From positions 408 to 64,407 of the forward strand of contig JAFGIK010000086.1 of NCBI GenBank assembly GCA_016929645.1: a DNA stretch of 64,000 bases. Direction: 5' to 3'. The notes under the pieces were generated by a model that saw only the letters and a program-made list of their open reading frames with translations, did no database searches and was not told the DNA's origin. Below are positions 7,133-63,365 of this stretch, one piece after another. Numbering within the stretch: position 1 is the stretch's first letter; each line of letters opens with the position of its first letter. This stretch comes from Candidatus Dojkabacteria bacterium (GTDB lineage Bacteria; Patescibacteriota; Dojkabacteria; SC72; JAFGCJ01). A program made the translations under genes and the position numbers.

Positions 7133-7262
7133 AATTTATGTTCAAAAAAATTACGCCAAACATTTGTCATTATAACAAAACAAAGGGAAAATTGGGAATT
7201 CCATAGCTGAAATATACTAATATTGGGGCATCACAAGAATACTTCGGTCATTAACACACAAC

Positions 7263-8333: not shown

Positions 8334-8337
8334 TTGA

Positions 8338-17780: not shown

Positions 17781-17830
17781 TTAGACTTTATTAAAAAATT
17801 ATTAACTTGAATCATCAAGAAAATCAAATA

Positions 17831-19144: not shown

Positions 19145-19213
19145 AAGTTTTTTAATTAGAATTTAATTAATTAATCACATATAATTCTTAACTTTCCGAA
19201 ATACTACAAAAAA

Positions 19214-22485: not shown

Positions 22486-25400
22486 TTATGGCTTGTACTT
22501 CGTACTTCCATCACTATCAATTCTGATCCAATATCCTGAAGTCGGATAGGCATCAAAATTAAATCCATAGACCTTACCATCCTCAACAATCAAGCTATAG
22601 TACTTTCCATCTTGCCATCTGGATATAATTTTTGAACCATCAGTATCAGAATCAATATTTGACAAAACGTCTTGAGCATCAAGTTTCTCACTATTTTCCT
22701 TATATAACCCAACAAGATTCCACCCTGGATTTAGACTAATTTCCAATGATCCCTCAACAAATTTTCCTTGAAAATCTACATCAGCTTTTTGATATGTTCT
22801 AATGAAATAACCAAATCCAGGAATAATACTGAAATCTTGACCAAAGGTCACATCTGCACCATCTGTGGACTCTCTTGTTGTATAGGTATTAAATACACCT
22901 CCACTATAGCTAACAATATGCGTCACATCACCACCATTTTGATTAATATAGTTCATCAATTCGGAAGCTTTGGTTATTTCAGAAGTACCGGAACCCTCCA
23001 TAACAAGCGGGAAATGCACAAGATTCCATCCGACATCAAAGTGATACTGTAATAAATCTGTCACCTTTTTTACTTTTATATCAGAAATGTTTTCTCCAGA
23101 GATATATGGCTCTTCATCATCCCGCACTCCATTTTCATTATTATCAAGAAAGTATCGAAGCTCACCAGTCTCTTCAATCACAATTTCTGTTGTAGTAATA
23201 TCAAGACCTTTTACCTCATAAACTCCAGGTTCATAGGTTTCGTTAGTATTATCAGTATCATTAGTCTCGGCTTGAGCCAAAGCATCAGTTTCTAAATTAC
23301 CAGACACATGCGTAGATTCTCCAAGCACTGATGATATTGAGGAATCTCCAGGCTTAACTCCAATAGTACCTCCTGCTGTATGATCGACACAGCAGACATA
23401 ATAGGAATCATCTTCAATATCCTTACATCCAATATATGACATGCTAATAGATTTCAAAACTTTAACCATACCAGAGGAAGAATCACATGTTGTCACACCA
23501 TCAAATACTGGATCTTTTGGACAACAGAAGAATCCAGTTCCTGTAATGTTCCAGCAATCAGTTCTATTAGAATAGTCAAGAATTTTATCATGTGTCGCGG
23601 ATGGACATCCAGATCTATCCTTTGGACAACAATAATTATCATCTGTAAGATACCAGCAAACGGATTTGTCTTCTGGATGGTAAGTAATGTCATAATACTC
23701 TTCTGGACAATCACTATACGGGTCATAAGTTGAAGATTCAGTGCAACAATACAAACCATTAACGTATGGATGCTGCTCACAAGTATATGATCCTTTAATC
23801 TCCGAATTATATGAGCTCTCAGTCCCATCAGGACATTTACAGCATAAACCTCCACCAGCAGGAGCAGGCGTACAGCCCATAACTAAAGCGTCAACTCCTG
23901 AAACGAAACTCGTCCCTTCTGGACAATTAGTCGTCTTCTTTACCTCTGGCTTCCACGTAGGGTTACCACACTGATTATTACAGCCACATCCATCAATCTT
24001 GTAAGTGACACCAGATGAACTGCACATTGCCATAATGCAAGACCCTTCTCCATTACTTACTTTGTTTTTTAAATCCTCAGGCCAACTAACAGGAGTATCC
24101 GCATTACAACCATAATTCGTCCAAGCATTAGGTCCACAGGCACTTGTCTCTTGAGTTGAAACAGGATTATTAGTATTGCAATAATCGTTGCCAGAACCAG
24201 TCATACAACCATTAGTACAAGCCTCAGCAAGTTCCCCATCACCGGAATTCGAATTACATCTCCAGAGATTTGATCCATTACAATACAAACCTGCTCCATT
24301 CCAGCCACCATTTGAAAGTGAAGAACAAAAGCCAGAAGGTTGAAGCTCACCTGTACCACCTGAAGAATTACATAAATTTGAACAAGCCGCAGGGCATCCA
24401 TTTTCACAAGCAGTTGGATCATCAGACCCAGGACAACCGGACTTACAAGAATCAACACAATCCGAAACATTAGTAAACCTCGAGTCTCCAGGACAATCCC
24501 CTGATCCAGAAGAACCCCCACTACTTGGAGTACCTGAATCACTTGGAGTACCAGAATCTCCAGTATCGCTAGAAGAACTACACAAATTTGAGCAAGCCGA
24601 AGGGCATCCATTTACACAAGTAGTTGGATCATCAGACCCAGGACAACCGGACTCACAAGAATCAACGCAATCCGAAACATTAGTAAACCTCGAGTCTCCA
24701 GGACAATCCCCAGCAAATGCACCAAGAACCAACTTATCTAGTTCGCTTTTCCCTGATTCGGTATCTTCCAAAGTTATTGGACTAACTGGCTGATCCATAT
24801 CAGTAGAAACATACATTTTGCTTGAATAAACACTATTATTAACCACACCAAAAATATTAATTATATCAGTATCGTTTATCCCAGGTTCATATACGGATTT
24901 ACCATCAACTGAAAGTATATTTGATATATCTACAGTATAAGAACCTTCAAATAAAGGAGAAGAGACCCAACCAGATTCTTCTGTATCAATACTTGATCTT
25001 TTTACCAGAGCTACACCATCAACAATTGAATCTCCATTGCCATCACTTACATTTCCATAGACAGGGTCAGGACTAGTTACATCATCATTGATTTGAGAAG
25101 TCTTAAATGAATTATCAATTTCAAATGCAACTTTAGCAAAAGATCCAGATTTTATTGCAAAATAATAGTTTGCTGTTGGCTCCAATCCTGTAATAGTTAC
25201 ATGATGAGTATATCTTTTATTTGCAGCACTTTTATTATAATCACGATTCCCGGATGAATCCATTTCAACGTCTCTATCATCATAAAATTCATTATCTGAT
25301 TTGAACAACATAAAACCACCGTCAACTTCTTTTTCACCTACAATAACTGTACCAATAACAGGTCTATCCGTAGTCCAAACAATTGTTGCACTGGAATATG

Positions 25401-25569
25401 TCACATTGGAAACATACACATTATCTACTTTCACAGAACAATCAATATTTATCTTGACTAAAACTACAATCAAACAGGACGCTAAGATCAAACCCAGTGC
25501 AATTAAAGAATAAATAACTAATGATTTCTTTGAGAAACGGAACGAAGAAGGCTTGGATTTAATAGCCAT
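22486..25569 (-). CDS. large secreted/surface protein: N-terminal TM anchor, fibronectin-III-like domain, Cys-rich internal repeats, CC-motif-rich region
   Basis: N-terminal hydrophobic segment. FN3-like VTYSSATIVWTTD...YYFAIKSG. Duplicated about 46-aa Cys-rich module CPGDSRFTNVSDCVDSC.SGCPGSDDPT.C.NGCP.ACSNLC. Later CCKCPDG/CCTESS/CCPKD motifs. Confidence 0.7.
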   Translation of the reverse strand: MAIKSKPSSFRFSKKSLVIYSLIALGLILASCLIVVLVKINIDCSVKVDNVYVSNVTYSSATIVWTTDRPVIGTVIVGEKEVDGGFMLFKSDNEFYDDRDVEMDSSGNRDYNKSAANKRYTHHVTITGLEPTANYYFAIKSGSFAKVAFEIDNSFKTSQINDDVTSPDPVYGNVSDGNGDSIVDGVALVKRSSIDTEESGWVSSPLFEGSYTVDISNILSVDGKSVYEPGINDTDIINIFGVVNNSVYSSKMYVSTDMDQPVSPITLEDTESGKSELDKLVLGAFAGDCPGDSRFTNVSDCVDSCESGCPGSDDPTTCVNGCPSACSNLCSSSSDTGDSGTPSDSGTPSSGGSSGSGDCPGDSRFTNVSDCVDSCKSGCPGSDDPTACENGCPAACSNLCNSSGGTGELQPSGFCSSLSNGGWNGAGLYCNGSNLWRCNSNSGDGELAEACTNGCMTGSGNDYCNTNNPVSTQETSACGPNAWTNYGCNADTPVSWPEDLKNKVSNGEGSCIMAMCSSSGVTYKIDGCGCNNQCGNPTWKPEVKKTTNCPEGTSFVSGVDALVMGCTPAPAGGGLCCKCPDGTESSYNSEIKGSYTCEQHPYVNGLYCCTESSTYDPYSDCPEEYYDITYHPEDKSVCWYLTDDNYCCPKDRSGCPSATHDKILDYSNRTDCWNITGTGFFCCPKDPVFDGVTTCDSSSGMVKVLKSISMSYIGCKDIEDDSYYVCCVDHTAGGTIGVKPGDSSISSVLGESTHVSGNLETDALAQAETNDTDNTNETYEPGVYEVKGLDITTTEIVIEETGELRYFLDNNENGVRDDEEPYISGENISDIKVKKVTDLLQYHFDVGWNLVHFPLVMEGSGTSEITKASELMNYINQNGGDVTHIVSYSGGVFNTYTTRESTDGADVTFGQDFSIIPGFGYFIRTYQKADVDFQGKFVEGSLEISLNPGWNLVGLYKENSEKLDAQDVLSNIDSDTDGSKIISRWQDGKYYSLIVEDGKVYGFNFDAYPTSGYWIRIDSDGSTKYKP
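24362..24709 (-). repeat. 139-bp direct repeat (two copies, about 95% identical, offset 209 bp) inside the surface-protein gene
   Basis: Copies at about 24362-24500 and 24571-24709, read from the sequence; encode the duplicated Cys-rich module. Confidence 0.85.
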
Positions 25570-25700
25570 TTTGAATTTTTAATAAGTTAGTATATCGGGA
25601 TCGGATATATTTCAATCTAATACTACTACTCATCAATGTATCAAATTTGACTAATAATGACAAAACCTGACATTTGAGTCAGTGGGCGAAAATCAATACA

Positions 25701-27155
25701 TTATTTTTTCATAGATTTAGCTAAATCAAGAAGTTGATCTTTTGTATTCATGCTAGGGTCATCAATAACTTTTTCAAGAAGATCCTTTAGGATAATTCCC
25801 ATTAATGGACCTTTCTCAATACCAAGTTCTGCAAGATCATTTCCATCGATTTTTAAATCATTAATTTTTAATGCCATATCTTTCTGTCGAATTTCAGATA
25901 TACGCTCTTGCAACTGCTCAATTTCTGCAGGCTGAAATATACCATCAGGATTTGAAGATGCATCTGCAATTCTTAACGAGAAAAGATCATCTATGTTCTC
26001 CTCACCGACCCTGGCAATAAAACGCCTTACTGCAGAATCTGTCCATTTTTTTGATTCATAGATCTCAATATCTTTTTCTGATGCATTTTCAGAAACAATA
26101 GGATAATAGAACATATGAAATTTTACCAATCTGGCTACTCGATCAATCTCGGCTCTTGAAAACCTTAAACGCTGCATCACTTCACGAGTTATTTTCTCAC
26201 CTTCAATATCATGACCATAAAAATGGCCATCAGCCATAGCTTTCCGTGGTTTACCAATATCATGTAGAAGTGCAGCTAATCTAATATTAACAGGAGCTAA
26301 ATCCATAGTACTCAAAAGATGTTTATAAACATCCTCTTTGTGAAATATTGGCTGATCAAAACCCACCCCTTCCAATAACTCCGGAATAAAAAGCTTCAAC
26401 AACCCACTCTTGCGCATAAACTCTATCCCAATAGATGGCTTCTCGGACTTGTTCAGCAATTTCACAATCTCATCACGTACGCGCTCCATAGAAACCTGAG
26501 CAGACACAGCTAAAGTTTTTGTTATAGCCTTAAAGGTCTTCTCCTCTATATCAAAACCTAGCTCTGCTGCTAATCTACAAGCTCTCAACGCTCGAAGTCC
26601 ATCCTCACTAAATCGCTGTTCTGCAACACCAGTTGATCTGACTATCTTATTATTCAAATCAATAATCCCATCAAATGGATCATAAATAGTCATTTTTTTA
26701 AGATCTTTACTGCCATCCAGATCTGCTGATGCAAGATCCATTGCCATCGAATTCCAGGTAAAATCCCGTCGCTTAAGATCCTCATCAAGATTCTTTACAA
26801 ATTCAACTGTTGATGGCCATCTGCCATCAACATATTTTTCATCACTACGAAAAGTTGTAACCTCCACTTGGTAAGTTGGATAACCATCTTTCTCTCGAAT
26901 AATAACTGTAACTGTCCCAAATTTTGCACCAGTTGAAACAGCTTTTGGAAAAATATTCAACATTTGATCTGGCAAAGCATCAGTCGCAAGATCATAGTCA
27001 TCTGGCAATATTCCCATAACAAGATCCCGTAATGCCCCACCAACTAAATAACATTTAAATCCCTCTTTACTTAGAATTCTTGCCACTGTTTGAACATACT
27101 CAGGAATAATAAGCTCAATCTCATATATATGTTGATCTATCTTTTTGATATTCAT
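25701..27155 (-). CDS. cca: CCA-adding tRNA nucleotidyltransferase with HD domain
   Basis: Pol-beta NTase motif YLVGGALRDLV...DYDLATDALPD. HD domain LLHDIGKP. The ORF track extends the N-terminus to 27299, but the likely start is MNIKKIDQ near 27155. Confidence 0.85.
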   Translation of the reverse strand: MNIKKIDQHIYEIELIIPEYVQTVARILSKEGFKCYLVGGALRDLVMGILPDDYDLATDALPDQMLNIFPKAVSTGAKFGTVTVIIREKDGYPTYQVEVTTFRSDEKYVDGRWPSTVEFVKNLDEDLKRRDFTWNSMAMDLASADLDGSKDLKKMTIYDPFDGIIDLNNKIVRSTGVAEQRFSEDGLRALRACRLAAELGFDIEEKTFKAITKTLAVSAQVSMERVRDEIVKLLNKSEKPSIGIEFMRKSGLLKLFIPELLEGVGFDQPIFHKEDVYKHLLSTMDLAPVNIRLAALLHDIGKPRKAMADGHFYGHDIEGEKITREVMQRLRFSRAEIDRVARLVKFHMFYYPIVSENASEKDIEIYESKKWTDSAVRRFIARVGEENIDDLFSLRIADASSNPDGIFQPAEIEQLQERISEIRQKDMALKINDLKIDGNDLAELGIEKGPLMGIILKDLLEKVIDDPSMNTKDQLLDLAKSMKK

Positions 27156-29038
27156 GCTCTTATTATAACAGCAGATAAAATTCTTGAAAGATAACGACCA
27201 ATATTCAGCCTTCGTGCAAGAATATAAAGCGAGAAACTGCTTGATAGTAATATAATATTTATATTTGAACCAGTCCTGGCAAGATATCCTGAATGACAAA
27301 TCGCTCCAAGATTACATATAGTTGAAGGATTAAAAGCACCATCTGATATATCACCTTCCTGAGAAGGAATTTCCTCAGAATAGACATTAACTATGGTGCT
27401 TACAGAATCACTAATATTCTGACAATAGTCACTATCGCAAAAAAGATTTACTACATTTGGAATTACGTATTCTCCCGAAATAAGGTCAGATTTGACTTTA
27501 GCATCAAGAACATAATGAACCTCTTGTTTATTATTAATCCTGCCAATATGAGCCTGAAGTGATAGATCTTGAATATTAAAAAAGTTGGCATCTGTAATTT
27601 CAATATAATTATCAGAAAACAGGTCATTTACATCAATATTTTCTGCTCTTGCACCATTATTTTTAACAATAATGTCATATCTAATAAATTCTCCTGAGTT
27701 ACTAGTCGTAGATTCAACCATCGTCTCATCACTATCAGAAACAAACTTCTCAACACTCAAATCTGGGGCAAGATGTAAATCAATAGCCATAGATCTTAAT
27801 TCATATGGAATCAGAGTAACTGATATAAAATCTCCAGAGCCTACAGCAACAAAATCTGTCTGATTAGCTACCCAAGTCGAAGGAGCACCATAATCACCCC
27901 TCAAAGAAATGATGCTTCGAGATTCAGGATTCGTGGACATATTAGTTGAAGCTGCAAGACTTACACTCTCTTTATGAAAATTTGGATCTTTCACAATTAG
28001 AGGAGAAATTGTCATATCCAATGGATAGTCAAGACCCATATTCAAATCATAATATAAAGAAATTCTATCTTTAGGACCAATACTTACAACCTGAGTATGA
28101 ATTGAACCATCAGGTAATTGATCAGTTACCTCAATATTATTAAGCGTGTAAGAACTATAGTTAAAAAGTGTAGAAGAAAACTCAAGTATCAATTCACCAG
28201 AATCATTAAATTCTGGAACCACTGATCTATGGACAATTTTTAGTGGTTGAATAGTGGAAAAAGAATAGATAGTCCGGCCAACAGGAGGATATGAGTAAGA
28301 ACTTGGAGCAAAATTGCCAATAGTTTCCATAACGTGAGCTTTACCACCCCTTGTAATCATCGAACCATTAAAAAGAAAAGCTACTGAGACATTTACAACA
28401 TCAGCACCTAAACGCGTCAGATCACCCGATGATGGATCGGCTCTTGATACAAAAATGTTAGATTTACCAACATCAATCTGATGACTGGAATAATTAAAAT
28501 AAAAATATCCAAAATCAATATTGCTATTGGGCGGAACCTGAACAGCATCTGCAACACCTAAATAACGCCTTGCACTCGGATATAACACAGTACCAACATC
28601 AAAAAAATCATGCGACCCTACAAATCCATCTGATTCACCATGAATAAGTGAACTATCATAATACATCGACCCTGCAGATCTGGAAGGTACCGGAAGATTT
28701 CTATACGATACAGAAATTGTCTGAGCAAATTCACAATTCATCGTGTCACCTCTAGGATAAAATGCATCCGCTCTTACCTTTTGTGGTAAGAATATAATCA
28801 GAGATGCCAGAAAAACTAAGTATAGAAGGATACGATTTTTATATTTCTTGTAGATTTTTGCAAATCTAGCATTACGTTGATCCAGGTTGTCGCTTAGAAC
28901 ACTTTTATTTGTTGCCCTGGAACTCCTACATATATCTTTCCATACGGTATATCCACGATAGGAGTCACCGAACTTTACGTATTTCCCATTAAGATATTGA
29001 ACATCGGAATTCCTAGGATAATAAGTTTTTTTATTCAT
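27152..29038 (-). CDS. secreted surface protein with C-terminal LAxTG-type sorting signal (628 aa)
   Basis: N-terminal TM/signal segment. C-terminus LARTG + hydrophobic stretch + RR/R tail (class-E-sortase-like LAxTG). Middle region resembles bacterial conserved-repeat (DUF11-like) domains (weak). Confidence 0.55.
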   Translation of the reverse strand: MNKKTYYPRNSDVQYLNGKYVKFGDSYRGYTVWKDICRSSRATNKSVLSDNLDQRNARFAKIYKKYKNRILLYLVFLASLIIFLPQKVRADAFYPRGDTMNCEFAQTISVSYRNLPVPSRSAGSMYYDSSLIHGESDGFVGSHDFFDVGTVLYPSARRYLGVADAVQVPPNSNIDFGYFYFNYSSHQIDVGKSNIFVSRADPSSGDLTRLGADVVNVSVAFLFNGSMITRGGKAHVMETIGNFAPSSYSYPPVGRTIYSFSTIQPLKIVHRSVVPEFNDSGELILEFSSTLFNYSSYTLNNIEVTDQLPDGSIHTQVVSIGPKDRISLYYDLNMGLDYPLDMTISPLIVKDPNFHKESVSLAASTNMSTNPESRSIISLRGDYGAPSTWVANQTDFVAVGSGDFISVTLIPYELRSMAIDLHLAPDLSVEKFVSDSDETMVESTTSNSGEFIRYDIIVKNNGARAENIDVNDLFSDNYIEITDANFFNIQDLSLQAHIGRINNKQEVHYVLDAKVKSDLISGEYVIPNVVNLFCDSDYCQNISDSVSTIVNVYSEEIPSQEGDISDGAFNPSTICNLGAICHSGYLARTGSNINIILLSSSFSLYILARRLNIGRYLSRILSAVIIRA

Positions 29039-31178: not shown

Positions 31179-32543
31179 TTACTTTACGATATTCCAAACA
31201 GGTCCAGTTGCTGTATCTTCCAAGGTAACACCCAAATTCTCAATCTCTCCTCTTAATTTATCTGCCATATCCCAATCCTTGTTTGATCTAGCTTCTTCAC
31301 GTTCTCGAACCAATTGTTCAATTTTTTCCGTCAAATCATCACTAATTTTGTGATCAGATTGTGTGAATTCCTTTAGATTGAAAGCAAATACCTTGTCAAA
31401 ATCCAAAATCGTCGCAAGCTTATTTTTACTGGAAATATCTTTTGACTTTACAACCGCCCAAAGAATTGCAACTGCCTGAGGAGTATTAAAATCTTCGCTA
31501 AGCTTTTCTTCAAACTGAGCCTTCATGTCAGGATCTACTTCACCAAGCTTTCCTTTAACCTCAATCCAAAGTTTCGTAACATAGTTTCTCAATCTTTGAA
31601 GTGCTTTTTGAGCTGGCTCAAGTACAGATTTATCATAATTGATCTCGCTTCGATAATGAACAGTAGCCCTCCAGTACCTTATAACCATTGGATCATAATC
31701 TTTAAGCATATCAGGAATAATAACAAAGTTGTGATTTGATTTACCCATTTTTTTTCCATTAACATTTAGAAGTCCCGCATGCATCCACCAATTCACAAAC
31801 TTCTTGTCATTTGCTGCTTCCGACTGGGCAATTTCATTCTCGTGATGTGGAAATCTCAAATCTAAAGCTCCTCCATGTATATCAAATGGCTGTCCAAGAT
31901 ATTTTTCAGACATGACAGAACACTCAATATGCCAACCTGGTCTACCTTGCCCCCATGGGCTTTCCCAAGAAGGTTCGCCTTCTTTTGCTTTTTTCCACAA
32001 CGCAAAATCAGCAACACTATCTTTATCATATTTATCAGTATCAACCCGCTGACCAGTTACACCCTCATCAAATTTTATTCCAGAAAGCTTTCCATAATTT
32101 TCAAATTTTGAGACTCTGTAATATACTCCATCCGCTGTTTCATAAGCATAACCTTTCTTTTCAAGGCGAGAAACCATATCAACAATCTCTTTAATGTGAT
32201 CAGTAACTCGTGGATAAACATCAGCAGGCATAATATTAAGAGCATCAAGATCCTTCATATATTGTTTAATATTAGTATCAGCTAATTCAAAGATTGTAAT
32301 ACCCTGATGATTTGCCTCCTTTATCATATCGTCGTGTACATCAGTAAGATTTACAACATACTTTACTTCGTATCCAAGATAAATAAATGCCCTACGAATA
32401 ATATCAAACGTAATATACGTACTTGCATGACCAAGATGACTTGGACCATAAACTGTAGGTCCACACACATACATATTTACTTTGTTTTCATTAATAGGTG
32501 TAAATTCATCAACAGACCGAGTAAGTGTGTTATATATTTTCAT
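31179..32543 (-). CDS. cysS: cysteinyl-tRNA synthetase
   Basis: HIGH-class motif CGPTVYGPSHLGHASTY, KMGKS (KMSKS) motif, Zn-binding Cys residues. Confidence 0.93.
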   Translation of the reverse strand: MKIYNTLTRSVDEFTPINENKVNMYVCGPTVYGPSHLGHASTYITFDIIRRAFIYLGYEVKYVVNLTDVHDDMIKEANHQGITIFELADTNIKQYMKDLDALNIMPADVYPRVTDHIKEIVDMVSRLEKKGYAYETADGVYYRVSKFENYGKLSGIKFDEGVTGQRVDTDKYDKDSVADFALWKKAKEGEPSWESPWGQGRPGWHIECSVMSEKYLGQPFDIHGGALDLRFPHHENEIAQSEAANDKKFVNWWMHAGLLNVNGKKMGKSNHNFVIIPDMLKDYDPMVIRYWRATVHYRSEINYDKSVLEPAQKALQRLRNYVTKLWIEVKGKLGEVDPDMKAQFEEKLSEDFNTPQAVAILWAVVKSKDISSKNKLATILDFDKVFAFNLKEFTQSDHKISDDLTEKIEQLVREREEARSNKDWDMADKLRGEIENLGVTLEDTATGPVWNIVK

Positions 32544-32608: not shown

Positions 32609-33220
32609 CTATTGAGAAATAAATCCCTGAAGATTTCCGTCTTCATCAAATGGTAATCTTAATTTTCTTGAATTAGAAGTACCATTATTATACTGCCCCA
32701 CAATACCATTAATATATGCTGCTTTAGATTGATCTAATTGAGGGTCATCGACTGAATGGAACTCTCCCGCACTATCTTTAATTGTGACTTGTAATCGAGT
32801 TTCATTTCTAATTCGTATCCCATCGAAATCCAAACTCGTAAGCTTGCCCGATTGAATTCTGAATACTAAGGTCTCGCCAGATTTAGGATCAGGGATTTCA
32901 CAAGAAAATCCCTGAACTTGTTGTGCCTGGATTCGATCTTGTTCGTCATAGAATTCATGAGGGGCAGATTCTTGAGTCTTAATCTGTACTCCGCGAACTA
33001 ATTCGAAATTTTGTGATCTTAAATCTGTACCGCCTGAGGCTTTTGATCCATCAATCCAAAGAGATTCTACTCGGCCTGTAACATCTAGTCCTAATTCGTC
33101 CTTACAAGTAAAAGTAGATATAAAAGATTGCGGTTTATAGATACTTTCGGAACGTAGTACTGGATCATCAATATGAAAAACTGAGGCCGGACCATTTGTT
33201 AAAAGCTCTGAATTAGTCAT
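32609..33220 (-). CDS. hypothetical protein (203 aa)
   Basis: No recognisable motif; no signal peptide. Confidence 0.4.
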   Translation of the reverse strand: MTNSELLTNGPASVFHIDDPVLRSESIYKPQSFISTFTCKDELGLDVTGRVESLWIDGSKASGGTDLRSQNFELVRGVQIKTQESAPHEFYDEQDRIQAQQVQGFSCEIPDPKSGETLVFRIQSGKLTSLDFDGIRIRNETRLQVTIKDSAGEFHSVDDPQLDQSKAAYINGIVGQYNNGTSNSRKLRLPFDEDGNLQGFISQ

Positions 33221-33254: not shown

Positions 33255-35252
33255 TTATATTATTTCTACTCTCACTGCAATATTTTTGTAACACGGCGTC
33301 CCACTTTCAGGATCAAGAACCCTTGGCGTCAACTTATTTACAAGTATTTTATCATAATGATAAGGTGCTACAATCACACGTTTCTCAACACTAGCGTCCA
33401 ATTTTAACATGACTTCAATCTGCCCCACCTTAGAAACAACTCTGACAACATCTCCATCCACTATCTTTAATATATCAGCATCAATAGGATTCATCACTGC
33501 ATAAGGTTCACCGCTTAATTTCTTCATAGTTTGACTGTTACCAGTGCCTTCACCAGTGCAAAATTGAAATCGCTGTCTTGCTGTTGTAAAAACAAAAGGA
33601 AACTCGCTCATATCTTTGAAATGAGAAATTTCATATTTAATTTTCGGAAGCTTAATATACTTTGGCTGTTTATCTGTCAAAATATCATTTCCTGAAAACA
33701 CTTCATTAAAAGTTAACAAATCGTATCCCGGGACAACGCTTACCATTTCATTAATAATATCAACCACAGAGCCATATCTAAATTCTTCAAAATTCATAAA
33801 CTTTGCAAAGTCAAGAATTATTCGAGTATTAGATTTTGCCTCAGATACATTACACCACTTAGCCTTATAACTCACTTCGTCGCCTATAGAATTTTCACTA
33901 TGCAACAACCCTCGAATTCTGCGCTCTGCATTGGTAATCGAACCAGATTCCTCACTAAGCATCAAGGTTGGAAGAACAACATTTGCATATTTCATGGTCT
34001 CACCTGGATGGTGATGCTGATAAATAACAAATTTATCGAAAAGAGAATCATTAAGAGCGTTTAGATCAGGCATTGATTGACTAGGATTAGACTCCATAAT
34101 CCAAACGAATTTCACATCAGAGTCATACAAGGCCTTTGTAGAAACACTTCCATCATGTGATAAAAATTCCATATTCCATGACTCTGAAGCAATTCGTTCA
34201 TTAGATATATTCCAAAAAGGACTACCACCAACATCTGATGCTCCTTGCACATTAACCTTGCCACGACCAGGGAAAATAATTGCGTCAAGCAATAGCCCAA
34301 GACTTGTTATTGCTTGTACATTCTGCACTCCATTTTCATGTTGAGTCAAACCCATACCAAAACCGACAACTAACTTTTTAGCAGCATTAATATTTGAATA
34401 TAAAATTTCAATATCATCGCGAGAAAAACCAAATGTAGATAATGGGTTGTTATTAGCAACCTCAATGATAGAGTTTACAAAATCCGAATATCCTTCAATC
34501 TTCCCAGCATTTTTGCTTATATCTCCATTCTCGATTAGTTTAATCATAAGATGGCATAACATGGGTATAATTCCTTCAGGTGTAATTTTCAGTTTAACAT
34601 CAGCTATCTGAAAAGTACTACTCGACGCCATATCAACAGAAATGATTTTTGCACCATTGTTCTTTGCCGCAAGTACACGATTAAACATAACTGGATAATC
34701 TTCCATTGGATCTGTTCCTACATAGAGAAAACAATCTCCGTCCAACATATCATCAAAAGTATAGACAGGAATTGCCTGTAAGCCAAAAATTCGATCAAAA
34801 GCTACTGCTGTAGCTGCATGACAAAGCCGTGCACATGAATCAATATTATTTGAAGCAAACCCACTTCGACATAATTTTGACAACAAAAAGTTTGCCTCAT
34901 TAGTTGCCTCACCAGATGCCAGAAAATACACTTTATCTCGAACAGACTTCTTACTACTACCGTATCCAATGTTTTCAAGATTAGCTTTAATAAATGAGAA
35001 CGCATCGTCCCAGGTACAAGATTTAAATTCTTGATTTTTATTTTCTCGTATCATAGGTGTCTGAATTCTATTTTCATATAAAGGCTCATTAGATTTCAGA
35101 CCCTTTACACAAGGTCTTCCCGAACTTATAGTATCCTGCATGTCCGGTAATATTTTTTCTATCGTATTATTATCGGAAAGAATAGCATCAAATCTACAAC
35201 CACACCCACAATATGGACAAAACACCTTGTTCTTAAGTTCAGAAGAATTCAT
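33255..35252 (-). CDS. FdhF-like molybdopterin (bis-MGD) formate dehydrogenase catalytic subunit, Cys-type
   Basis: N-terminal 4Fe-4S ferredoxin-type motif CPYCGCGC...GRPCVKG (C-x2-C-x3-C-x27-C). CARLCHAATAVAF aligns with E. coli FdhF CARVUHGPSVAGL, with Cys replacing SeCys. KIISVDMAS MGD-binding region. C-terminal molybdopterin-binding beta-barrel. Confidence 0.75.
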   Translation of the reverse strand: MNSSELKNKVFCPYCGCGCRFDAILSDNNTIEKILPDMQDTISSGRPCVKGLKSNEPLYENRIQTPMIRENKNQEFKSCTWDDAFSFIKANLENIGYGSSKKSVRDKVYFLASGEATNEANFLLSKLCRSGFASNNIDSCARLCHAATAVAFDRIFGLQAIPVYTFDDMLDGDCFLYVGTDPMEDYPVMFNRVLAAKNNGAKIISVDMASSSTFQIADVKLKITPEGIIPMLCHLMIKLIENGDISKNAGKIEGYSDFVNSIIEVANNNPLSTFGFSRDDIEILYSNINAAKKLVVGFGMGLTQHENGVQNVQAITSLGLLLDAIIFPGRGKVNVQGASDVGGSPFWNISNERIASESWNMEFLSHDGSVSTKALYDSDVKFVWIMESNPSQSMPDLNALNDSLFDKFVIYQHHHPGETMKYANVVLPTLMLSEESGSITNAERRIRGLLHSENSIGDEVSYKAKWCNVSEAKSNTRIILDFAKFMNFEEFRYGSVVDIINEMVSVVPGYDLLTFNEVFSGNDILTDKQPKYIKLPKIKYEISHFKDMSEFPFVFTTARQRFQFCTGEGTGNSQTMKKLSGEPYAVMNPIDADILKIVDGDVVRVVSKVGQIEVMLKLDASVEKRVIVAPYHYDKILVNKLTPRVLDPESGTPCYKNIAVRVEII

Positions 35253-35275: not shown

Positions 35276-35923
35276 TCAGGCATTAGTTCTACCTTCTATT
35301 GCACGCTTAATAGTCAAACGATCAGCATATTCAAGGTCAGCCCCGGTTGGAAGCCCCATTGCTAATCTGGAAATTTTTATTTTGCTATGATCAATTTCAT
35401 TTATTGAAGATAACATATCAATAATATACGATGACGTAGCCTCACCTTCTAAACTTGGATTGGTAGCAATTATTATCTCCAACAACTCTGTATCAGAATT
35501 ATCACTAGCAGAATCAAAATATGAGATAATCCGATTTCTTAGTTGACCCATTCTTAAGTTTTCAGGTCCTATCCCATCAGCAGGAGAAATAACCCCGCCA
35601 AGAACAAAATACAGGCCATCATAGACACCTGAGGCTTCAATGGCCACTACATCAAGAAGCTCTTCAACAACACATACTTTATGCTTGTTTCTCGAGGAAT
35701 CAGAACAAATATCACATGGATTTTTATCTGACACATTAAAACATGTTTTGCAGACAACAATATCCTTTTTCATCTGAACAAGAGCCTTTGCAAGTTCAAC
35801 TGATCGCTCGCTTGGAGCTCGAAGGAAAAAGTATGCCATCCTGGCAGCAGATTTAGGACCAACTCCAGGTAGCTTTTCGAATTCAGAAATTACTTTTCGC
35901 ACACAAGATGGTAATACAGCCAT
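35276..35923 (-). CDS. recR: recombination protein RecR
   Basis: HhH (KLPGVGPKSAARMAYFFL), C4 zinc finger (CKTCFNVSDKNPCDIC), Toprim domain. Confidence 0.92.
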   Translation of the reverse strand: MAVLPSCVRKVISEFEKLPGVGPKSAARMAYFFLRAPSERSVELAKALVQMKKDIVVCKTCFNVSDKNPCDICSDSSRNKHKVCVVEELLDVVAIEASGVYDGLYFVLGGVISPADGIGPENLRMGQLRNRIISYFDSASDNSDTELLEIIIATNPSLEGEATSSYIIDMLSSINEIDHSKIKISRLAMGLPTGADLEYADRLTIKRAIEGRTNA

Positions 35924-43277: not shown

Positions 43278-45083
43278 CTATAAATGCCTATCACTGCTTG
43301 ATTTTCCAGCGGAGAACTCTTTACCAAACTCTTTTTCAGCAGAATCCATAACCTTATTTTCCCACAAAGATCTTCTGCCTTTCTTTGACATTCTCATCTT
43401 AAGATCACCCATACCGCCACCTACTCTTTCAGAAACAAACAAGATTACATTGTCGAACATTCCAGATTTATAAGAAAAACCGGCAACAACAAGAAGCAAA
43501 CCACCCAATGCTATCCTTGCTAGTGTACTGTCAAAAAGTCCAGTATTAGGTAGTCTACAAGTCACAAAAATATCCTCATCCGCATATATATCACCAGGCT
43601 CTGGCTCAGTAACATGGGCAAACACCTGATTATGTAAAGTTAGTCCAAAGGCCTCTCTTGGTACACGAATAGTATATCTAAAGTATCTCCAACACGAATC
43701 ATCTGTACAAGGCTCAAAGATTTGATCATCTCCTTCAAGATTCCATCTAATATGTTCTGATGTTATTTCTCCAGGAGGAATTGTTGGACTTGTTGATATG
43801 ATCCAATTCTGTTGAATAGTGTCATCATAGTGATCTTCTACATATTCTATCTTTCCAGTGCTCCCTTCAGCAGTGTTTCTTATCCTAATTTCGTAAGTGA
43901 TATCAGCATATACACTTGATGTACCCTCTTCATAACAAACAGGCGTGCCATTCTTCTCAATCTCCCAATCAGGAGGTGTCTCTTCCTGACAGACACACTC
44001 AGGCTGAATACACTCACTCCACAAACACTCCTGTTGAGGACCACCCGGATCGCCAAGCTCACAATGCTCATAATCCTGATTATAAATACGATCACCACAG
44101 AAAGGAGCAACCTGCTCTATACTTGCCGTACAGGTTTCAGCTTCCTTCCAACTATCCGCATAATTGTCAGCATCCGCAACATCAACCTTCACACTGTAAG
44201 TATGACCAGATTGCTGAGTGAGACTAAATGTACCGTTTAATGTACACTGATTTCGTCGACCAATATTTCCGTTCTGGATAAGTGGTTCACCAGTTCTAGC
44301 ACAAGTAATCATACTTGAGCCAGCCTCAACGATTTGAGGATATCCACTTACAACCTGGCCATCTTCCATTACGGTAACTCTAAATCTAACATTATCTCCA
44401 TCGATATCTTCTCCTCGAGTTGTAATTGACAAGGTATTTGTAGCCTGGTCCCATGTAGCAGTAGTGTCAATACAGTAGGTACATGCTGACCAATCAACTG
44501 AGTCACAGCTACCAGCAGCACCTTGAGCATCGAAACACATTACGGTAGCATCCCCAGCACAATCCATCTGGCCAAGAGAACATGGATATGAATTAAGGCT
44601 TAGCGAAGCACCATCGCCAGTATAGACCCAATAACCTTCAATAACATATTCAGAAAAATTTCCACCGCCATCACAACCCGCTCTAGGACCACTACAACTG
44701 GCACCAGTAATACTTGCAGAAGCATCATCAGTGCTACAAGCAGAGCCACTAGTTGTACATGTAAGACCACCACAATTGCACGTACAAGTACCATCATCAG
44801 GAGTTGTTCTTGGTGTACAATGACACCATCGATCATGACCATCTCCATCACCATCACACTCTTGTCCATCAAGACACGCAGCTTGCTCATCTGAAGCACA
44901 ACATGTTACTCCCTCAGTCGAACTACAACAATCATGTTCCGTACCAGCCTGACTCTCCTCAGGCGTCACCTCTTTGGGCTGATTCAACCTCCAGATAACA
45001 TAAACAGAAGCTCCAATAGCTAAAACTCCAAGAATCGAACCAAGGATGATAAAAATCGTTTTTTTGTTAATTCTAGTTGCCAA
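43278..45083 (-). CDS. Cys-rich secreted surface protein with LPxTG-type sortase signal
   Basis: N-terminal TM/signal. Dense Cys clusters (HDCCSSTEGVTCCASD, CHCTPRTTPDDGTCTCNCGGLTC). Near the C-terminus LPNTG + hydrophobic helix (LARIALGGLLLVVAGF) + basic residues, followed by an unusual about 70-aa tail. Confidence 0.65.
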   Translation of the reverse strand: MATRINKKTIFIILGSILGVLAIGASVYVIWRLNQPKEVTPEESQAGTEHDCCSSTEGVTCCASDEQAACLDGQECDGDGDGHDRWCHCTPRTTPDDGTCTCNCGGLTCTTSGSACSTDDASASITGASCSGPRAGCDGGGNFSEYVIEGYWVYTGDGASLSLNSYPCSLGQMDCAGDATVMCFDAQGAAGSCDSVDWSACTYCIDTTATWDQATNTLSITTRGEDIDGDNVRFRVTVMEDGQVVSGYPQIVEAGSSMITCARTGEPLIQNGNIGRRNQCTLNGTFSLTQQSGHTYSVKVDVADADNYADSWKEAETCTASIEQVAPFCGDRIYNQDYEHCELGDPGGPQQECLWSECIQPECVCQEETPPDWEIEKNGTPVCYEEGTSSVYADITYEIRIRNTAEGSTGKIEYVEDHYDDTIQQNWIISTSPTIPPGEITSEHIRWNLEGDDQIFEPCTDDSCWRYFRYTIRVPREAFGLTLHNQVFAHVTEPEPGDIYADEDIFVTCRLPNTGLFDSTLARIALGGLLLVVAGFSYKSGMFDNVILFVSERVGGGMGDLKMRMSKKGRRSLWENKVMDSAEKEFGKEFSAGKSSSDRHL

Positions 45084-47829: not shown

Positions 47830-49080
47830 TTACTTCTTTAATGCTTTATTAATATCTTCGATAGCTTTTTCTCCAACTCCTTTTAATCCTAGTAACTCGC
47901 TTTTAGTTTTGGATCTAAGCTCATCGACAGTCTTGATATTACTTTCTTTTAACGCATTCAATGTTCGTTTAGGAAGTTTAAGTTCATTAATGTCTGTAAC
48001 CTTTTCTTCATTCATAGTAGCCATCTTTTTCACAACCTTCTTTACTGATTTCTTCGAATCTTCAACCTTACCTGATGTTTTACTGGAAGAGGTATCTGCT
48101 TGTACGATTCTAACAACTTTGCCAGAGGTAGCATCCGATTCTGCAACATCAACCCCATCTTTCATTGCTTTAAGCTTCTGAACATGTAATTCCTGCTCCA
48201 TCCTTTTTCTTTCTTGCTCTTTTTCAGAAAATTGCCTTTTAGCTTCAATATTTGAGATATAATCATTTCTCCTCTTAATCAAATCTCTACTTGGTTTAGA
48301 ATCAGAAAAAGCCTGGGCAAGATAGTCAATAAATAATCTTAAGGATTTAATTGCATCATCATTTCCGGGGATTGGATAATCAATAACCTTTGGATCACAA
48401 TTTGTGTCAACTATTGCAACCAATGGAATATTCATCTTTCTCGCCTCTTTTATTGCGATTCTCTCAAATTTGGTATCAATTACAAACATAGCGACAGGTT
48501 TCTTATCCATAAATGTTACCCCTTCATATACTTTCTCATATCTTTCCCTATCACGATCCATAACACCACGCTCTCGTTTTGTTTCATAACCAGAATGCGC
48601 AGCAAGATTTTCATCCAAAAACATCAATTTATTAATACTCTTTTGAATAGATCGCGAATTTGTCAGTAATCCAGCTGGCCATTTTTTACTAATATAGAAA
48701 GCTCCATGATCAATACCTGCATTTTTAATTAATGTTGCAGCTTGACCTTTAGTACCAACCAATAATATGTTCCCCTGTGTCGAAATTTTCGCAAGGAATT
48801 CAGCAGCCTCTCTCATAAGCTTTAACGTTTGAGTGAGGTCAATAATATGCATATTATTTCTGACGTCAAAAACATAATCCTTCATAGCGGGATTCCATCT
48901 GCTCTTTTTATGTCCAAAGTGACAACCAGCAGCAAGAAGCTCTTGAAGAGTCACATCTTTGATCTTACTTAGATCAACAGATTTTACTTCCTCTGGTTTA
49001 CGAACAAAATTTGAAGGTCTTGATGATTTAGATATTTTTTTAGAGGCTTTTACAGCCTCCTTTGCAGTTGATTCTGCCAT
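47830..49080 (-). CDS. rpsB: 30S ribosomal protein S2 with C-terminal RNA-polymerase-alpha-CTD-like HhH domain
   Basis: S2 core (LLAAGCHFGHKKSRWNP...). Basic Lys/Ser-rich linker. C-terminal LKLPKRTLNALKESNIKTVDELRSKTKSELLGLKGVGEKAIEDI matches the alpha-CTD pattern L.LS.R..N.L....I.TV.DL......ELL...N.G.KS..EI. Confidence 0.85.
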   Translation of the reverse strand: MAESTAKEAVKASKKISKSSRPSNFVRKPEEVKSVDLSKIKDVTLQELLAAGCHFGHKKSRWNPAMKDYVFDVRNNMHIIDLTQTLKLMREAAEFLAKISTQGNILLVGTKGQAATLIKNAGIDHGAFYISKKWPAGLLTNSRSIQKSINKLMFLDENLAAHSGYETKRERGVMDRDRERYEKVYEGVTFMDKKPVAMFVIDTKFERIAIKEARKMNIPLVAIVDTNCDPKVIDYPIPGNDDAIKSLRLFIDYLAQAFSDSKPSRDLIKRRNDYISNIEAKRQFSEKEQERKRMEQELHVQKLKAMKDGVDVAESDATSGKVVRIVQADTSSSKTSGKVEDSKKSVKKVVKKMATMNEEKVTDINELKLPKRTLNALKESNIKTVDELRSKTKSELLGLKGVGEKAIEDINKALKK

Positions 49081-63156: not shown

Positions 63157-63233
63157 GCCGATGTAGCTCAGTTGGCTAGAGCAACGGTTTTGTAAACCGT
63201 AGGTCATGAGTTCGAATCTCATCATCGGCTCCA
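63157..63233 (+). tRNA. tRNA-Thr (anticodon UGU), CCA encoded
   Basis: Cloverleaf read by eye: acceptor GCCGATG/CATCGGC, D-arm AGCTCAGTTGGCTAGAGC, anticodon stem ACGGT/ACCGT with loop TTTGTAA, T-arm GGTTCGAATCC. Confidence 0.9.
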
Positions 63234-63255
63234 AGGATTCGTGTAACAATTTTGT

Positions 63256-63341: not shown

Positions 63342-63365
63342 GATAAAACTTCAAGAAGCCTAGCA

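What the first reader, a model, noticed from the sequence alone, without database searches (positions are those of the whole stretch)
33255..35252. Standalone FdhF-like formate dehydrogenase with Cys at the SeCys position and no partner or cofactor genes nearby
CARLCHAATAVAF aligns with E. coli FdhF CARVUHGPSVAGL, with Cys in place of selenocysteine. The N-terminal C-x2-C-x3-C...C-x-K-G 4Fe-4S motif is intact. A Mo/W-bis-MGD enzyme is unexpected in a reduced, CPR-like genome. No Moco biosynthesis, FdhD/E or electron-transfer subunit genes flank it; it sits between cysS and recR. It may be horizontally acquired or represent an unusual minimal formate metabolism.
Basis: partly seen in the sequence, partly recalled or inferred. 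Interest (0 to 1): 0.6.

Follow-up and report, generated by a model that had tools for sequence, protein, structure and literature searches.

The report
Lone formate dehydrogenase in tiny bacterium
A symbiotic bacterium with a very small genome (Candidatus Dojkabacteria) carries an apparently functional, single-protein formate dehydrogenase from a distinct, unstudied subfamily shared with equally reduced DPANN archaea, which raises the question of where these organisms get the enzyme's complex molybdenum/tungsten cofactor.

Summary
ORF 33255-35252 (minus strand, 665 aa) is a three-domain molybdopterin oxidoreductase. It keeps all four 4Fe-4S cysteines plus Lys50, Cys144-His145 at the FdhH Sec140-His141 position (TGT codon, no in-frame TGA), and Arg330 (FdhH Arg333). 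The AlphaFold model (pLDDT 91) matches E. coli FdhH at TM 0.87.

No Moco biosynthesis, FdhD, Mo/W-transport, ferredoxin or partner-subunit gene lies in the 64 kb.

It is not a relic. These residues are invariant in 115 of 115 relatives.

It is not a recent transfer. Five independent Dojkabacteria-type genomes carry it in the same recR-[gene]-cysS slot, and its composition matches its neighbours.

It belongs to a discrete subfamily of about 24 clusters at 50% identity, found in Dojkabacteria, DPANN archaea and Bathyarchaeia. The subfamily is marked by a 6-residue deletion before the catalytic Arg, loss of the "DPR" motif and a His-to-Tyr change. It scores below NCBI's FDH-alpha cutoff.

Most likely it is a monomeric, cytoplasmic formate dehydrogenase/CO2 reductase linked to ferredoxin. 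The partner is inferred, not shown.

DPANN are reported to lack MoeA and Mo/W uptake. The rest of this genome could not be searched, so the cofactor source is unresolved.

The parts
33255..35252 (-). CDS of the 665-aa stand-alone FdhA-like Mo/W-bis-pyranopterin (MopB) enzyme, identical to MBN1618794.1
   Evidence: ORF. Pfam three-domain hit. Best NCBIfam hit TIGR01591 Fdh-alpha at 352.9 bits, below the 666.25 cutoff. Best PDB sequence hits are F420-FDH 9t1s_L (2.9e-69), 7bkb_D, HDCR FdhF 7qv7_S and FdhH 1aa6. AF2 pLDDT 91.2. Foldseek top hit FdhH 1fdi, TM 0.87.
35094..35222 (-). N-terminal 4Fe-4S domain (residues 11-53): C12-x2-C15-x3-C19 ... C48-x-K50-G51
   Evidence: Pfam PF04879. Maps to FdhH C8/C11/C15/C42/K44. 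Present in every relative that covers the position: C48 and K50 in 115/115, and C12/C15/C19 in 112/115 (the other three have a gap there).
33912..35069 (-). Molybdopterin-oxidoreductase catalytic core (residues 62-447)
   Evidence: PF00384, E 9.6e-46. 49 of the 64 positions conserved at 95% or more in the family are identical to E. coli FdhH.
34818..34823 (-). Cys144-His145: the predicted metal-ligand Cys (Sec140 position of FdhH) followed by the catalytic His
   Evidence: Codons TGT and CAT. Aligned to U140-H141. 115/115 invariant. The NasA control has Cys-Met here.
34263..34265 (-). Arg330, equivalent to the catalytic Arg333 of FdhH
   Evidence: The NasA control has Thr at this position.
34263..34301 (-). 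Shortened loop (6-residue deletion) leading into the catalytic Arg; a subfamily signature
   Evidence: The loop is 12 residues in 112/115 relatives and 18 in E. coli FdhH and in the canonical-looking P0117/P0119/P0120. Among the 50%-identity representatives checked, the subfamily members have 12 residues and the canonical FDHs have 18 (17 in one case).
34626..34733 (-). Beta-alpha-beta dinucleotide-binding unit (residues 174-209) with subfamily-specific changes: 'GTDPMEDYP' instead of canonical 'GxNxxxxHP', and 'VDMAS' instead of 'DPR'
   Evidence: DSSP on the model gives E174-178, H187-198 and E202-207. Tyr186 is present in 109/115 relatives, DPR in none, and Asp207 is kept in 27/27 CPR members. 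Nearly all canonical representatives have His and DPR.
33279..33596 (-). C-terminal molybdopterin-dinucleotide-binding beta-barrel domain (residues 553-658)
   Evidence: PF01568, E 2.1e-20. Conserved R559, D591, S607, N639 and K656 equal FdhH R581, D614, S630, N662 and K679.
35276..35923 (-). recR, the conserved upstream neighbour (23-nt gap, same strand)
   Evidence: Pfam RecR domains. Synteny in L001, L003, L005 and L012.
31179..32543 (-). cysS, the conserved downstream neighbour
   Evidence: Pfam tRNA-synt_1e, E 2.6e-122. Synteny.
32609..33220 (-). Orphan 203-aa ORF between the FDH-like gene and cysS; lineage-specific and not a conserved partner
   Evidence: No Pfam or NCBIfam hit. No tblastn or blastp match in any related locus. 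Absent from L005 and L012, where cysS follows directly.

Best explanation
The gene encodes a functional, cytoplasmic, single-subunit formate dehydrogenase/CO2 reductase of the Mo/W-bis-pyranopterin-guanine-dinucleotide type. Cys144 would ligate the metal, His145 and Arg330 would bind and orient formate/CO2, and Lys50 would relay electrons from the proximal pterin to one surface-near [4Fe-4S] cluster. No partner subunit is encoded next to it in any of the 11 genomes examined. Electrons are therefore most likely exchanged directly with a soluble low-potential carrier. Ferredoxin is the inferred candidate, by analogy with ferredoxin-dependent NarB and with the lone FdhA proposed for the Asgard archaeon MK-D1. 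In a fermentative episymbiont the likely direction is CO2 + reduced ferredoxin -> formate, giving a one-protein electron sink whose product can be passed to a host or partner. The reverse direction, disposing of formate made by pyruvate formate-lyase, is also possible. The enzyme belongs to a discrete, uncharacterised subfamily found in Dojkabacteria, DPANN archaea and Bathyarchaeia. In Dojkabacteria it has been inherited vertically in a fixed housekeeping gene array since an ancient, probably archaeal, acquisition. Shown: the fold, all catalytic and cluster residues, family-wide conservation, synteny, and the absence of neighbouring partner or cofactor genes. Inferred: cofactor occupancy, formate as substrate, ferredoxin as partner, the physiological direction, and the cofactor source.
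For: Three-domain MopB architecture. The best family and structure matches are all FDH catalytic subunits. The model is confident: pLDDT 91.2, pTM 0.92. C12/C15/C19/C48, K50, C144, H145 and R330 align to the FdhH functional residues and are present in every one of 115 full-length relatives that covers the position, down to 28% identity. 49 of 64 family-conserved positions are identical to FdhH. In-session control: a NasA from a nirBD-nasA operon has Met and Thr where this protein has His145 and Arg330, so those residues discriminate FDH from nitrate reductase. There is no twin-arginine signal; the N-terminus MNSSELKNKVFCPYCG runs straight into the cluster motif. The gene is stand-alone in all contexts examined: the window, L001, L003, L005, L012, L006-L009, L011 and L013. 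Vertical inheritance is supported by synteny and composition. Published precedent for a lone molybdopterin FdhA re-oxidising ferredoxin by CO2 reduction: PMC7015854. Dojkabacteria are predicted fermenters producing acetate, lactate and formate: PMC10031880.
Against: No Moco biosynthesis, FdhD, Mo/W transporter or ferredoxin gene was found in the 64-kb window or within about 10 kb of the gene in any relative. DPANN, which hold much of the family, are reported to lack MoeA and ModA/WtpA/TupA (PMC11733289), so cofactor supply is unexplained. The protein scores only about half the curated TIGR01591 cutoff. Two canonical motifs of the beta-alpha-beta dinucleotide-binding unit are altered and a loop next to the catalytic Arg is shortened, so substrate or cofactor details may differ from known FDHs. 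No activity, metal content or partner has been measured for any member.
Confidence: 0.6

Rival explanations
1. It is a real Mo/W-pterin enzyme but acts on a substrate other than formate/CO2. The remodelled loop beside the catalytic Arg and the altered dinucleotide-binding unit would reflect a new specificity within the FDH-like fold.
For: The subfamily is discrete and carries three coupled changes near the active site and cofactor site. Its scores are far below the FDH-alpha equivalog cutoff: 348-507 bits against 666. No formate-related neighbours (focA, pfl, fhs) appear in any of the contexts examined.
Against: The Cys-His pair and the Arg are the FDH-diagnostic residues and are invariant. 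The nitrate-reductase control lacks both. All top sequence and structure matches are FDHs.
Confidence: 0.15
2. It is a cofactor-less derivative, comparable to the MopB-like domain of NuoG/Nqo3 or to QrcB. It would keep only the Fe-S cluster, or a structural or moonlighting role, in organisms that cannot make Moco.
For: Carriers include lineages reported to lack MoeA and Mo/W uptake. The gene sits among DNA and translation housekeeping genes rather than metabolic genes. The canonical DPR motif is lost.
Against: The metal-ligand Cys, catalytic His and Arg, and electron-relay Lys are invariant in 115/115 relatives, and 49 of 64 conserved positions are identical to FdhH, including positions throughout the cofactor-binding domains. 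From background knowledge, cofactor-less MopB domains do not maintain these residues. Bathyarchaeia members of the same subfamily carry the same signature.
Confidence: 0.08
3. It is a recently acquired foreign gene or a binning/assembly contaminant in this MAG, with no stable role.
For: The nearest non-CPR relatives are archaeal. Metabolic enzymes of this size are unusual in CPR genomes.
Against: The same recR-gene-cysS slot is found in five independent assemblies from different samples, at 45-54% identity. GC and GC3 are indistinguishable from flanking genes. The CPR sequences form one clade of 27.
Confidence: 0.03
4. Its specific job is to make formate as the reductant for the class III ribonucleotide reductase (NrdD) encoded about 14 kb away.
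For: nrdD is present in the window at 49242-51083. E. coli-type class III RNRs consume formate (PMC4493059).
Against: The window's NrdD finger loop reads M-C-C where E. coli has M-G-C. A third active-site Cys characterises the thiol-dependent NrdD2/NrdD3 types, and formate-dependent NrdD1 lacks it. The two genes are not adjacent in any locus.
Confidence: 0.04

Closest known systems
E. coli formate dehydrogenase H (FdhF; PDB 1aa6/1fdi)
   Same: Same four-domain fold (Foldseek TM 0.87). Same cluster ligands, Lys relay, Sec/Cys-His pair and Arg. Similar size and a single [4Fe-4S] cluster.
   Different: Cys instead of Sec. Only about 25% identity. FdhH docks onto HycB in the formate hydrogenlyase complex and depends on FdhD, whereas no partner genes are present here. 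The subfamily has a 6-residue deletion before the Arg, Tyr for His in the GxNxxxxHP loop, and no DPR motif.
Archaeal FdhA of F420-dependent FDH (PDB 9t1s_L) and of the Fdh-Hdr-Fmd complex (7bkb_D)
   Same: These are the closest solved sequences (E 2.9e-69 and 3.8e-59). They share the 'TNxERR' motif and overall length.
   Different: Those enzymes work with FdhB or other Fe-S/flavin subunits encoded alongside. No such gene is near any member of this subfamily. They carry the canonical His, DPR and long loop in the printed alignments.
Stand-alone 'molybdopterin-dependent FdhA' proposed for Ca. Prometheoarchaeum syntrophicum MK-D1 (PMC7015854)
   Same: The same proposed logic: a lone FdhA re-oxidising ferredoxin by reducing CO2 to formate for transfer to a partner. 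A Heimdallarchaeota-labelled sequence (P0047) is in this family.
   Different: MK-D1 is not reported to lack Moco biosynthesis.
Ferredoxin-dependent assimilatory nitrate reductase (NarB/NasA/NasC)
   Same: A single-subunit cytoplasmic MopB enzyme with one [4Fe-4S] cluster and a Cys ligand, taking electrons from a soluble carrier. Second-best NCBIfam family (NasC, 231.8 bits).
   Different: The active site differs. The NasA control has Cys-Met and Thr where this protein has Cys-His and Arg.

Membership tests
Mo/W-bisPGD formate dehydrogenase catalytic subunit (FdhA/FdhF, TIGR01591) | Fe4S4 + Molybdopterin + Molydop_binding domain architecture | tested here: met
   Pfam PF04879, PF00384 and PF01568 are all above their gathering scores.
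Mo/W-bisPGD formate dehydrogenase catalytic subunit (FdhA/FdhF, TIGR01591) | Four Cys ligands of the proximal [4Fe-4S] cluster plus the Lys that bridges to the pterin | tested here: met
   C12/C15/C19/C48/K50 equal FdhH C8/C11/C15/C42/K44. Present in every relative that covers the position.
Mo/W-bisPGD formate dehydrogenase catalytic subunit (FdhA/FdhF, TIGR01591) | Sec or Cys metal ligand immediately followed by the catalytic His | tested here: met
   C144-H145 aligned to U140-H141. Codons TGT and CAT. 115/115. The NasA control has C-M.
Mo/W-bisPGD formate dehydrogenase catalytic subunit (FdhA/FdhF, TIGR01591) | Catalytic Arg (FdhH Arg333) | tested here: met
   R330, invariant. The NasA control has Thr.
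Mo/W-bisPGD formate dehydrogenase catalytic subunit (FdhA/FdhF, TIGR01591) | Score at or above the curated equivalog cutoff (666.25 bits) | tested here: not met
   The query scores 352.9 bits. The CPR clade scores 348-362 and the archaeal core subfamily 475-507. Only the canonical-looking P0120 passes, at 720.9.
Mo/W-bisPGD formate dehydrogenase catalytic subunit (FdhA/FdhF, TIGR01591) | FdhH-like three-dimensional fold | tested here: met
   AF2 pLDDT 91.2. Foldseek gives 1fdi at E 1.2e-49 and TM 0.87, and ForCE1 8rqz_C at TM 0.90.
Mo/W-bisPGD formate dehydrogenase catalytic subunit (FdhA/FdhF, TIGR01591) | Canonical dinucleotide-binding motifs GxNxxxxHP and DPR, and the full-length loop before the catalytic Arg | tested here: not met
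   The query has GTDPMEDYP and VDMAS and a 12-residue loop instead of 18. Nearly all canonical representatives have His, DPR and the long loop.
Mo/W-bisPGD formate dehydrogenase catalytic subunit (FdhA/FdhF, TIGR01591) | Bound Mo or W bis-PGD cofactor, and formate oxidation or CO2 reduction activity | not testable with these tools
   Requires protein purification, metal analysis and enzyme assays.
Mo/W-bisPGD formate dehydrogenase catalytic subunit (FdhA/FdhF, TIGR01591) | Genome encodes Moco biosynthesis (moaA/C/D/E, moeA/B, mobA) and the FdhD sulfurtransferase | tested here: inconclusive
   None was found in the 64-kb window or in the ±8-10 kb around 10 relatives. DPANN are reported to lack MoeA.
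Multi-subunit FDH systems (FHL FdhH-HycB, HDCR, F420-FDH FdhAB, NAD-FDH FdsABG) | Partner electron-transfer subunit genes adjacent to the catalytic subunit | tested here: not met
   No Fe-S, flavin or hydrogenase subunit gene flanks the gene in the window or in any of the related loci.
Assimilatory/periplasmic nitrate reductases (NasA/NarB/NapA) | Cys ligand not followed by His; no Arg at the FdhH-333 position | tested here: not met
   The query has His145 and Arg330. The L002 NasA control has Met and Thr. NCBIfam NasC scores 231.8 against a cutoff of 1100.
Cofactor-less MopB-like domains (NuoG/Nqo3 C-terminal domain, QrcB) | Loss of the metal-ligand residue and of conserved cofactor-pocket residues | tested here: not met
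   The ligand and pocket residues are conserved. NuoG and QrcB models score only 89.7 and 64 bits.

The most novel reading that the evidence does not exclude
Dojkabacteria and DPANN archaea are obligate episymbionts reported or presumed to lack molybdenum-cofactor biosynthesis and Mo/W uptake, yet they maintain an FDH with an intact active site under strong purifying selection. If closed genomes confirm that lack, these cells must import a mature or near-mature pterin cofactor from their hosts. That would be inter-organism Moco trafficking, so far only suggested in passing. Alternatively, the subfamily's remodelled dinucleotide-binding unit (6-residue deletion, DPR loss, His to Tyr) accommodates a non-canonical cofactor form. 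Either outcome would be new biology for the Mo/W enzyme field and for symbiont physiology.
Probability: 0.25. Interest if true: 0.85.

Novelty: new variant of a known kind. Interest (0 to 1): 0.55.

Why it matters
Mo/W-pterin enzymes need a biosynthesis and insertion pathway of ten or more genes, and the free cofactor is labile. Here is a catalytically intact FDH kept as a fixed, syntenic gene in bacteria with genomes under 1 Mb, and spread through DPANN archaea that a systematic survey found to lack MoeA and Mo/W transporters. This turns a vague idea, that symbionts may get Moco from the host, into a concrete and testable case with a defined reporter protein. It also defines an uncharacterised single-subunit FDH subfamily, about 24 clusters at 50% identity, with a clear sequence signature. 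Such an enzyme would be the simplest possible ferredoxin-to-CO2 electron sink. That makes it relevant to interspecies formate transfer in anoxic communities and potentially attractive as a minimal CO2-reduction catalyst.

Tried and rejected
1. Exact-sequence lookup of the window protein and of P0001 in the contig index returned nothing. Contexts therefore came from relatives.

2. The 203-aa ORF downstream of the gene was tested as a hidden partner. It has no Pfam or NCBIfam hit and no homologue in any related locus. The similarly sized unannotated ORFs next to archaeal members are unrelated to it. Rejected.

3. Formate supply for the class III RNR. The window's NrdD has an M-C-C finger loop, i.e. 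a third Cys typical of the thiol-dependent NrdD2/3 types rather than formate-dependent NrdD1. Weakened, but the diagnostic Glu was not checked.

4. A search of all six frames for a ferredoxin CxxCxxCxxxC[PAG] motif and for Cys-rich small ORFs found nothing credible.

5. The promoter/terminator scan around the gene was at chance level: 30 promoter-like sites against 31.8 expected. It is uninformative about operon structure.

6. The recent-HGT and contamination reading was rejected on synteny and composition.

7. The nitrate-reductase reading was rejected using the L002 NasA control.

8. The Foldseek afdb50 library was not available, so I could not check for members in cultured organisms.

9. 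Eight full-text literature searches found no paper describing this subfamily or the cofactor paradox for it.

10. The single genome-contig scan returned only two loci, so the rest of this MAG could not be searched for Moco genes.
Full report
**1. The observation**

The window contains an uninterrupted ATG-to-stop ORF at 33255..35252 on the minus strand, encoding 665 aa.

- Pfam assigns the three domains of a molybdopterin (MopB) oxidoreductase: Molybdop_Fe4S4 (residues 11-53), Molybdopterin (62-447, E 9.6e-46) and Molydop_binding (553-658).
- The best curated family is TIGR01591, formate dehydrogenase subunit alpha. The score is only 352.9 bits against a cutoff of 666.25.
- The best solved relatives by sequence are all FDH catalytic subunits: F420-dependent FDH 9t1s_L (E 2.9e-69), 7bkb_D, the HDCR FdhF 7qv7_S, and E. 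coli FdhH 1aa6 (E 3.8e-52).
- In the printed alignment to FdhH, query C12/C15/C19/C48 match the cluster ligands C8/C11/C15/C42. K50 matches K44, C144-H145 match Sec140-His141, and R330 matches Arg333.
- Cys144 is a TGT codon at 34821-34823, and the frame contains no TGA.

**2. The organism and the neighbourhood**

The identical protein is MBN1618794.1, 'molybdopterin-dependent oxidoreductase [Candidatus Dojkabacteria bacterium]', on a 64,521-bp contig.

I annotated essentially all ORFs of at least 110 aa in the window with Pfam. They are overwhelmingly housekeeping genes: prfA, prmC, ribosomal proteins, ssb, ychF, cca, rnhB, cysS, recR, ybaB, dnaX, mfd, pth, ybeY, frr, tsf, topA, mreBC and a PBP.

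The few metabolic genes are the AMP phosphorylase / form III RuBisCO / ribose-1,5-bisphosphate isomerase trio, nrdD, a dUTPase/dCTP-deaminase-family gene and glyA.

There is no Moco biosynthesis gene, no fdhD/E, no molybdate or tungstate transporter and no FDH partner subunit. No ferredoxin-type Cys motif occurs in any reading frame.

One omission: a 203-aa ORF (32609-33220) lies between the gene and cysS. It has no family hit and no homologue in any related locus, so it is a lineage-specific insertion and not a partner.

**3. Not a relic**

A search of 5.8 billion proteins returned 730 relatives at E <= 1e-10.

- In an alignment of the 115 full-length ones, down to 28% identity, C48, K50, C144, H145, R330, G331, N334 and Q336 are invariant in 115/115.
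- C12, C15 and C19 are present in every sequence that covers that position (112/115; the other three have a gap there).
- Of the 64 positions conserved at 95% or more in the family, 49 are identical to E. coli FdhH. They are spread over all domains and include FdhH M297, T300, Q301, Q339, D343, E450, G453, T456, R581, N662 and K679.
- An AlphaFold2 model built from the family alignment is confident (pLDDT 91.2, pTM 0.92). Its best PDB match is FdhH (1fdi, E 1.2e-49, TM 0.87), followed by other FDHs and then Nap.
- As an in-session control I used the assimilatory nitrate reductase from a nirBD-nasA operon (L002). It has Cys-Met and Thr where this protein has Cys-His and Arg. His145 and Arg330 therefore discriminate FDH chemistry from nitrate reductase chemistry.

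**4. Not a recent transfer**

- Relatives at 45-54% identity, from five independent assemblies, carry the gene in the same slot: the window, L001, L003/L004, L005 and L012. The order is pth-mfd-dnaX-ybaB-recR-[gene]-cysS-rnhB-cca, and in L012 it continues to the same RuBisCO cluster as in the window.
- The gene's divergence (45-54%) is comparable to that of its neighbours: recR 61-66%, cysS 39-66%, dnaX 52-73%, mfd 47-62%.
- Its GC (0.356) and GC3 (0.261) match its neighbours.
- In a neighbour-joining tree the 27 CPR sequences form one clade. That clade is nested among archaeal sequences and sits next to a group labelled Micrarchaeia/Nanoarchaeota.

I read this as an ancient inter-domain acquisition followed by vertical descent. 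The tree is only NJ with a single outgroup, so the direction and depth of the transfer remain tentative.

**5. A discrete subfamily**

Named relatives are Dojkabacteria/Patescibacteria, then Nanoarchaeota, Micrarchaeia, Aenigmatarchaeota, Woesearchaeota, Heimdallarchaeota and Bathyarchaeia.

The family has three coupled departures from canonical FDHs.

- A 6-residue deletion in the loop leading into the catalytic Arg. The loop is 12 residues instead of 18 in 112/115 relatives.
- Tyr instead of His in the 'GxNxxxxHP' loop, in 109/115.
- Loss of the 'DPR' motif, in all members.

The last two changes lie in a beta-alpha-beta unit: strand 174-178, helix 187-198, strand 202-207 in the model. By general knowledge of Rossmann-type folds, this is the phosphate loop and the ribose-binding acidic residue of a dinucleotide site. 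Asp207 is kept in all 27 CPR members but is mostly Gln or His in the archaeal members.

An exhaustive phmmer search of 1.84 billion cluster representatives found 5205 relatives. Among the top 50, the signature is present in about 24 clusters, all 584-681 aa. It then stops cleanly: the remaining representatives have the long loop (18 residues, 17 in one case), and nearly all have His and DPR.

Scores against TIGR01591 fall in steps. Canonical P0120 scores 720.9, P0117 scores 627.6, the archaeal core subfamily 475-507, and the CPR clade 348-362. By NCBI's own criterion the subfamily is not an FDH-alpha equivalog, which explains its generic database name.

**6. Always alone**

In Nanoarchaeia (L006/L007), another DPANN-type contig (L008), a 1.9-Mb contig (L009), Bathyarchaeia (L011) and Aenigmatarchaeota (L013), the gene sits among unrelated, mostly housekeeping genes. 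No FDH partner, FdhD or Moco gene lies within 8-10 kb. No neighbour is conserved between lineages.

**7. How it most likely works**

The shown facts are the fold, the cluster, the Lys relay, the Cys-His/Arg site, the absence of a signal peptide and the absence of a partner subunit. They point to a cytoplasmic, monomeric formate dehydrogenase/CO2 reductase whose single [4Fe-4S] cluster exchanges electrons directly with a diffusible low-potential carrier.

Ferredoxin is the inferred carrier. The analogy is with single-subunit ferredoxin-dependent nitrate reductases, and with the lone molybdopterin FdhA that Imachi et al. propose re-oxidises ferredoxin by reducing CO2 to formate in the syntrophic archaeon MK-D1 (PMC7015854).

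Dojkabacteria are predicted fermenters that release acetate, lactate and formate (PMC10031880). A one-protein ferredoxin-to-CO2 electron sink, or the reverse disposal of formate, fits that lifestyle.

Cofactor occupancy, substrate, partner and direction are all inferences.

**8. The unresolved point**

A systematic survey found MoeA and the Mo/W uptake proteins ModA/WtpA/TupA absent from DPANN. [quoted passage not shown] A recent review describes cofactor biosynthesis as mostly absent or incomplete in CPR (PMC13293708).

Yet DPANN and Dojkabacteria hold much of this subfamily, with the active site under obvious purifying selection. Absence of Moco biosynthesis in this organism is therefore not established.

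If absence is confirmed in closed genomes, the finding implies cofactor import or a non-canonical cofactor form. If the pathway is present, this is simply a new subfamily of ordinary FDH.

**9. Rivals**

- A different substrate within the FDH-like fold remains possible, given the remodelled loop next to Arg330 (confidence 0.15).
- A cofactor-less derivative is unlikely, given the invariant ligand and pocket residues (0.08).
- Recent HGT or contamination is effectively excluded by synteny (0.03).
- A dedicated role supplying formate to the nearby class III RNR is weakened. That NrdD has an M-C-C finger loop, i.e. the extra Cys typical of thiol-dependent subtypes rather than the formate-dependent one.

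**10. Verdict**

The protein is already in databases under a generic name. What is new is the recognition of a discrete, signature-bearing, always stand-alone FDH-like subfamily that is a fixed syntenic gene in Dojkabacteria and is shared with DPANN archaea. I rate it a new variant of a known kind, with moderate interest (0.55). The interest comes mainly from the testable cofactor-supply question.

Noticed in passing
window 16266-20209 (-): A complete archaeal-type AMP/nucleoside salvage trio lies in a row: AMP-phosphorylase-like (16266-17780), form III RuBisCO (17831-19144) and ribose-1,5-bisphosphate isomerase of the IF-2B family (19214-20209), followed by a HAD hydrolase. The same cluster lies downstream of the FDH-like gene in L012.
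   Followed up: partly
window 49242-51083 (-): The class III ribonucleotide reductase NrdD has an 'M-C-C' finger loop where E. coli NrdD has 'M-G-C'. The extra Cys suggests a thioredoxin/redoxin-dependent NrdD2/3 type rather than the formate-dependent type. No NrdG activase was noticed among the annotated ORFs.
   Followed up: partly
window 47830-49080 (-): Ribosomal protein S2 (Pfam residues 48-259) carries a C-terminal extension that matches the RNA polymerase alpha-subunit C-terminal domain (PF03118, residues 356-415, E 9.8e-14) and HHH_5. This is an unusual fusion.
   Followed up: no
window 5468-9696 (-): Three consecutive large ORFs (554, 356 and 452 aa) have no Pfam hit at all. Another such ORF lies at 43278-45083 (601 aa).
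   Followed up: no
window 22486-29038 (-): Two large, probably surface-exposed proteins: one of 1027 aa with a purple-acid-phosphatase N-terminal-like domain, and one of 628 aa with a DUF11 repeat and a hydrophobic C-terminal tail. The listed 628-aa ORF overlaps the listed start of the cca gene (25701-27299) by 148 nt, so one of the two start codons is probably miscalled. A protein of about 1190-1208 aa with the same Pur_ac_phosph_N hit is inserted next to the FDH-like gene in L003/L004.
   Followed up: no
window 32609-33220 (-): An orphan 203-aa ORF is wedged between the FDH-like gene and cysS. It has no family hit and no homologue in any related locus, and the slot between the FDH-like gene and cysS is variable (empty in L005 and L012, about 8.6 kb of other genes in L003).
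   Followed up: yes
window 1-64000: Nearly all genes are on the minus strand. GC skew is negative in every 2-kb bin except the first, so the cumulative skew falls steadily across the window. This is consistent with the window lying within one replichore, with genes co-oriented with replication.
   Followed up: no
window 63157-63439 (+): A tight tRNA cluster, Thr(TGT)-Tyr(GTA)-Thr(GGT), sits at the window's right end. The listed 200-aa ORF at 63397-63999 overlaps the third tRNA and is probably spurious or has a miscalled start.
   Followed up: no
L002 4571-10013 (+): The distant (25% identity) Pseudomonadota hit appears, from ORF sizes and order only, to be a canonical nirB (839 aa) - nirD (117 aa) - nasA (854 aa) operon. 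It was used here only as a negative control for the FDH active-site residues.
   Followed up: partly
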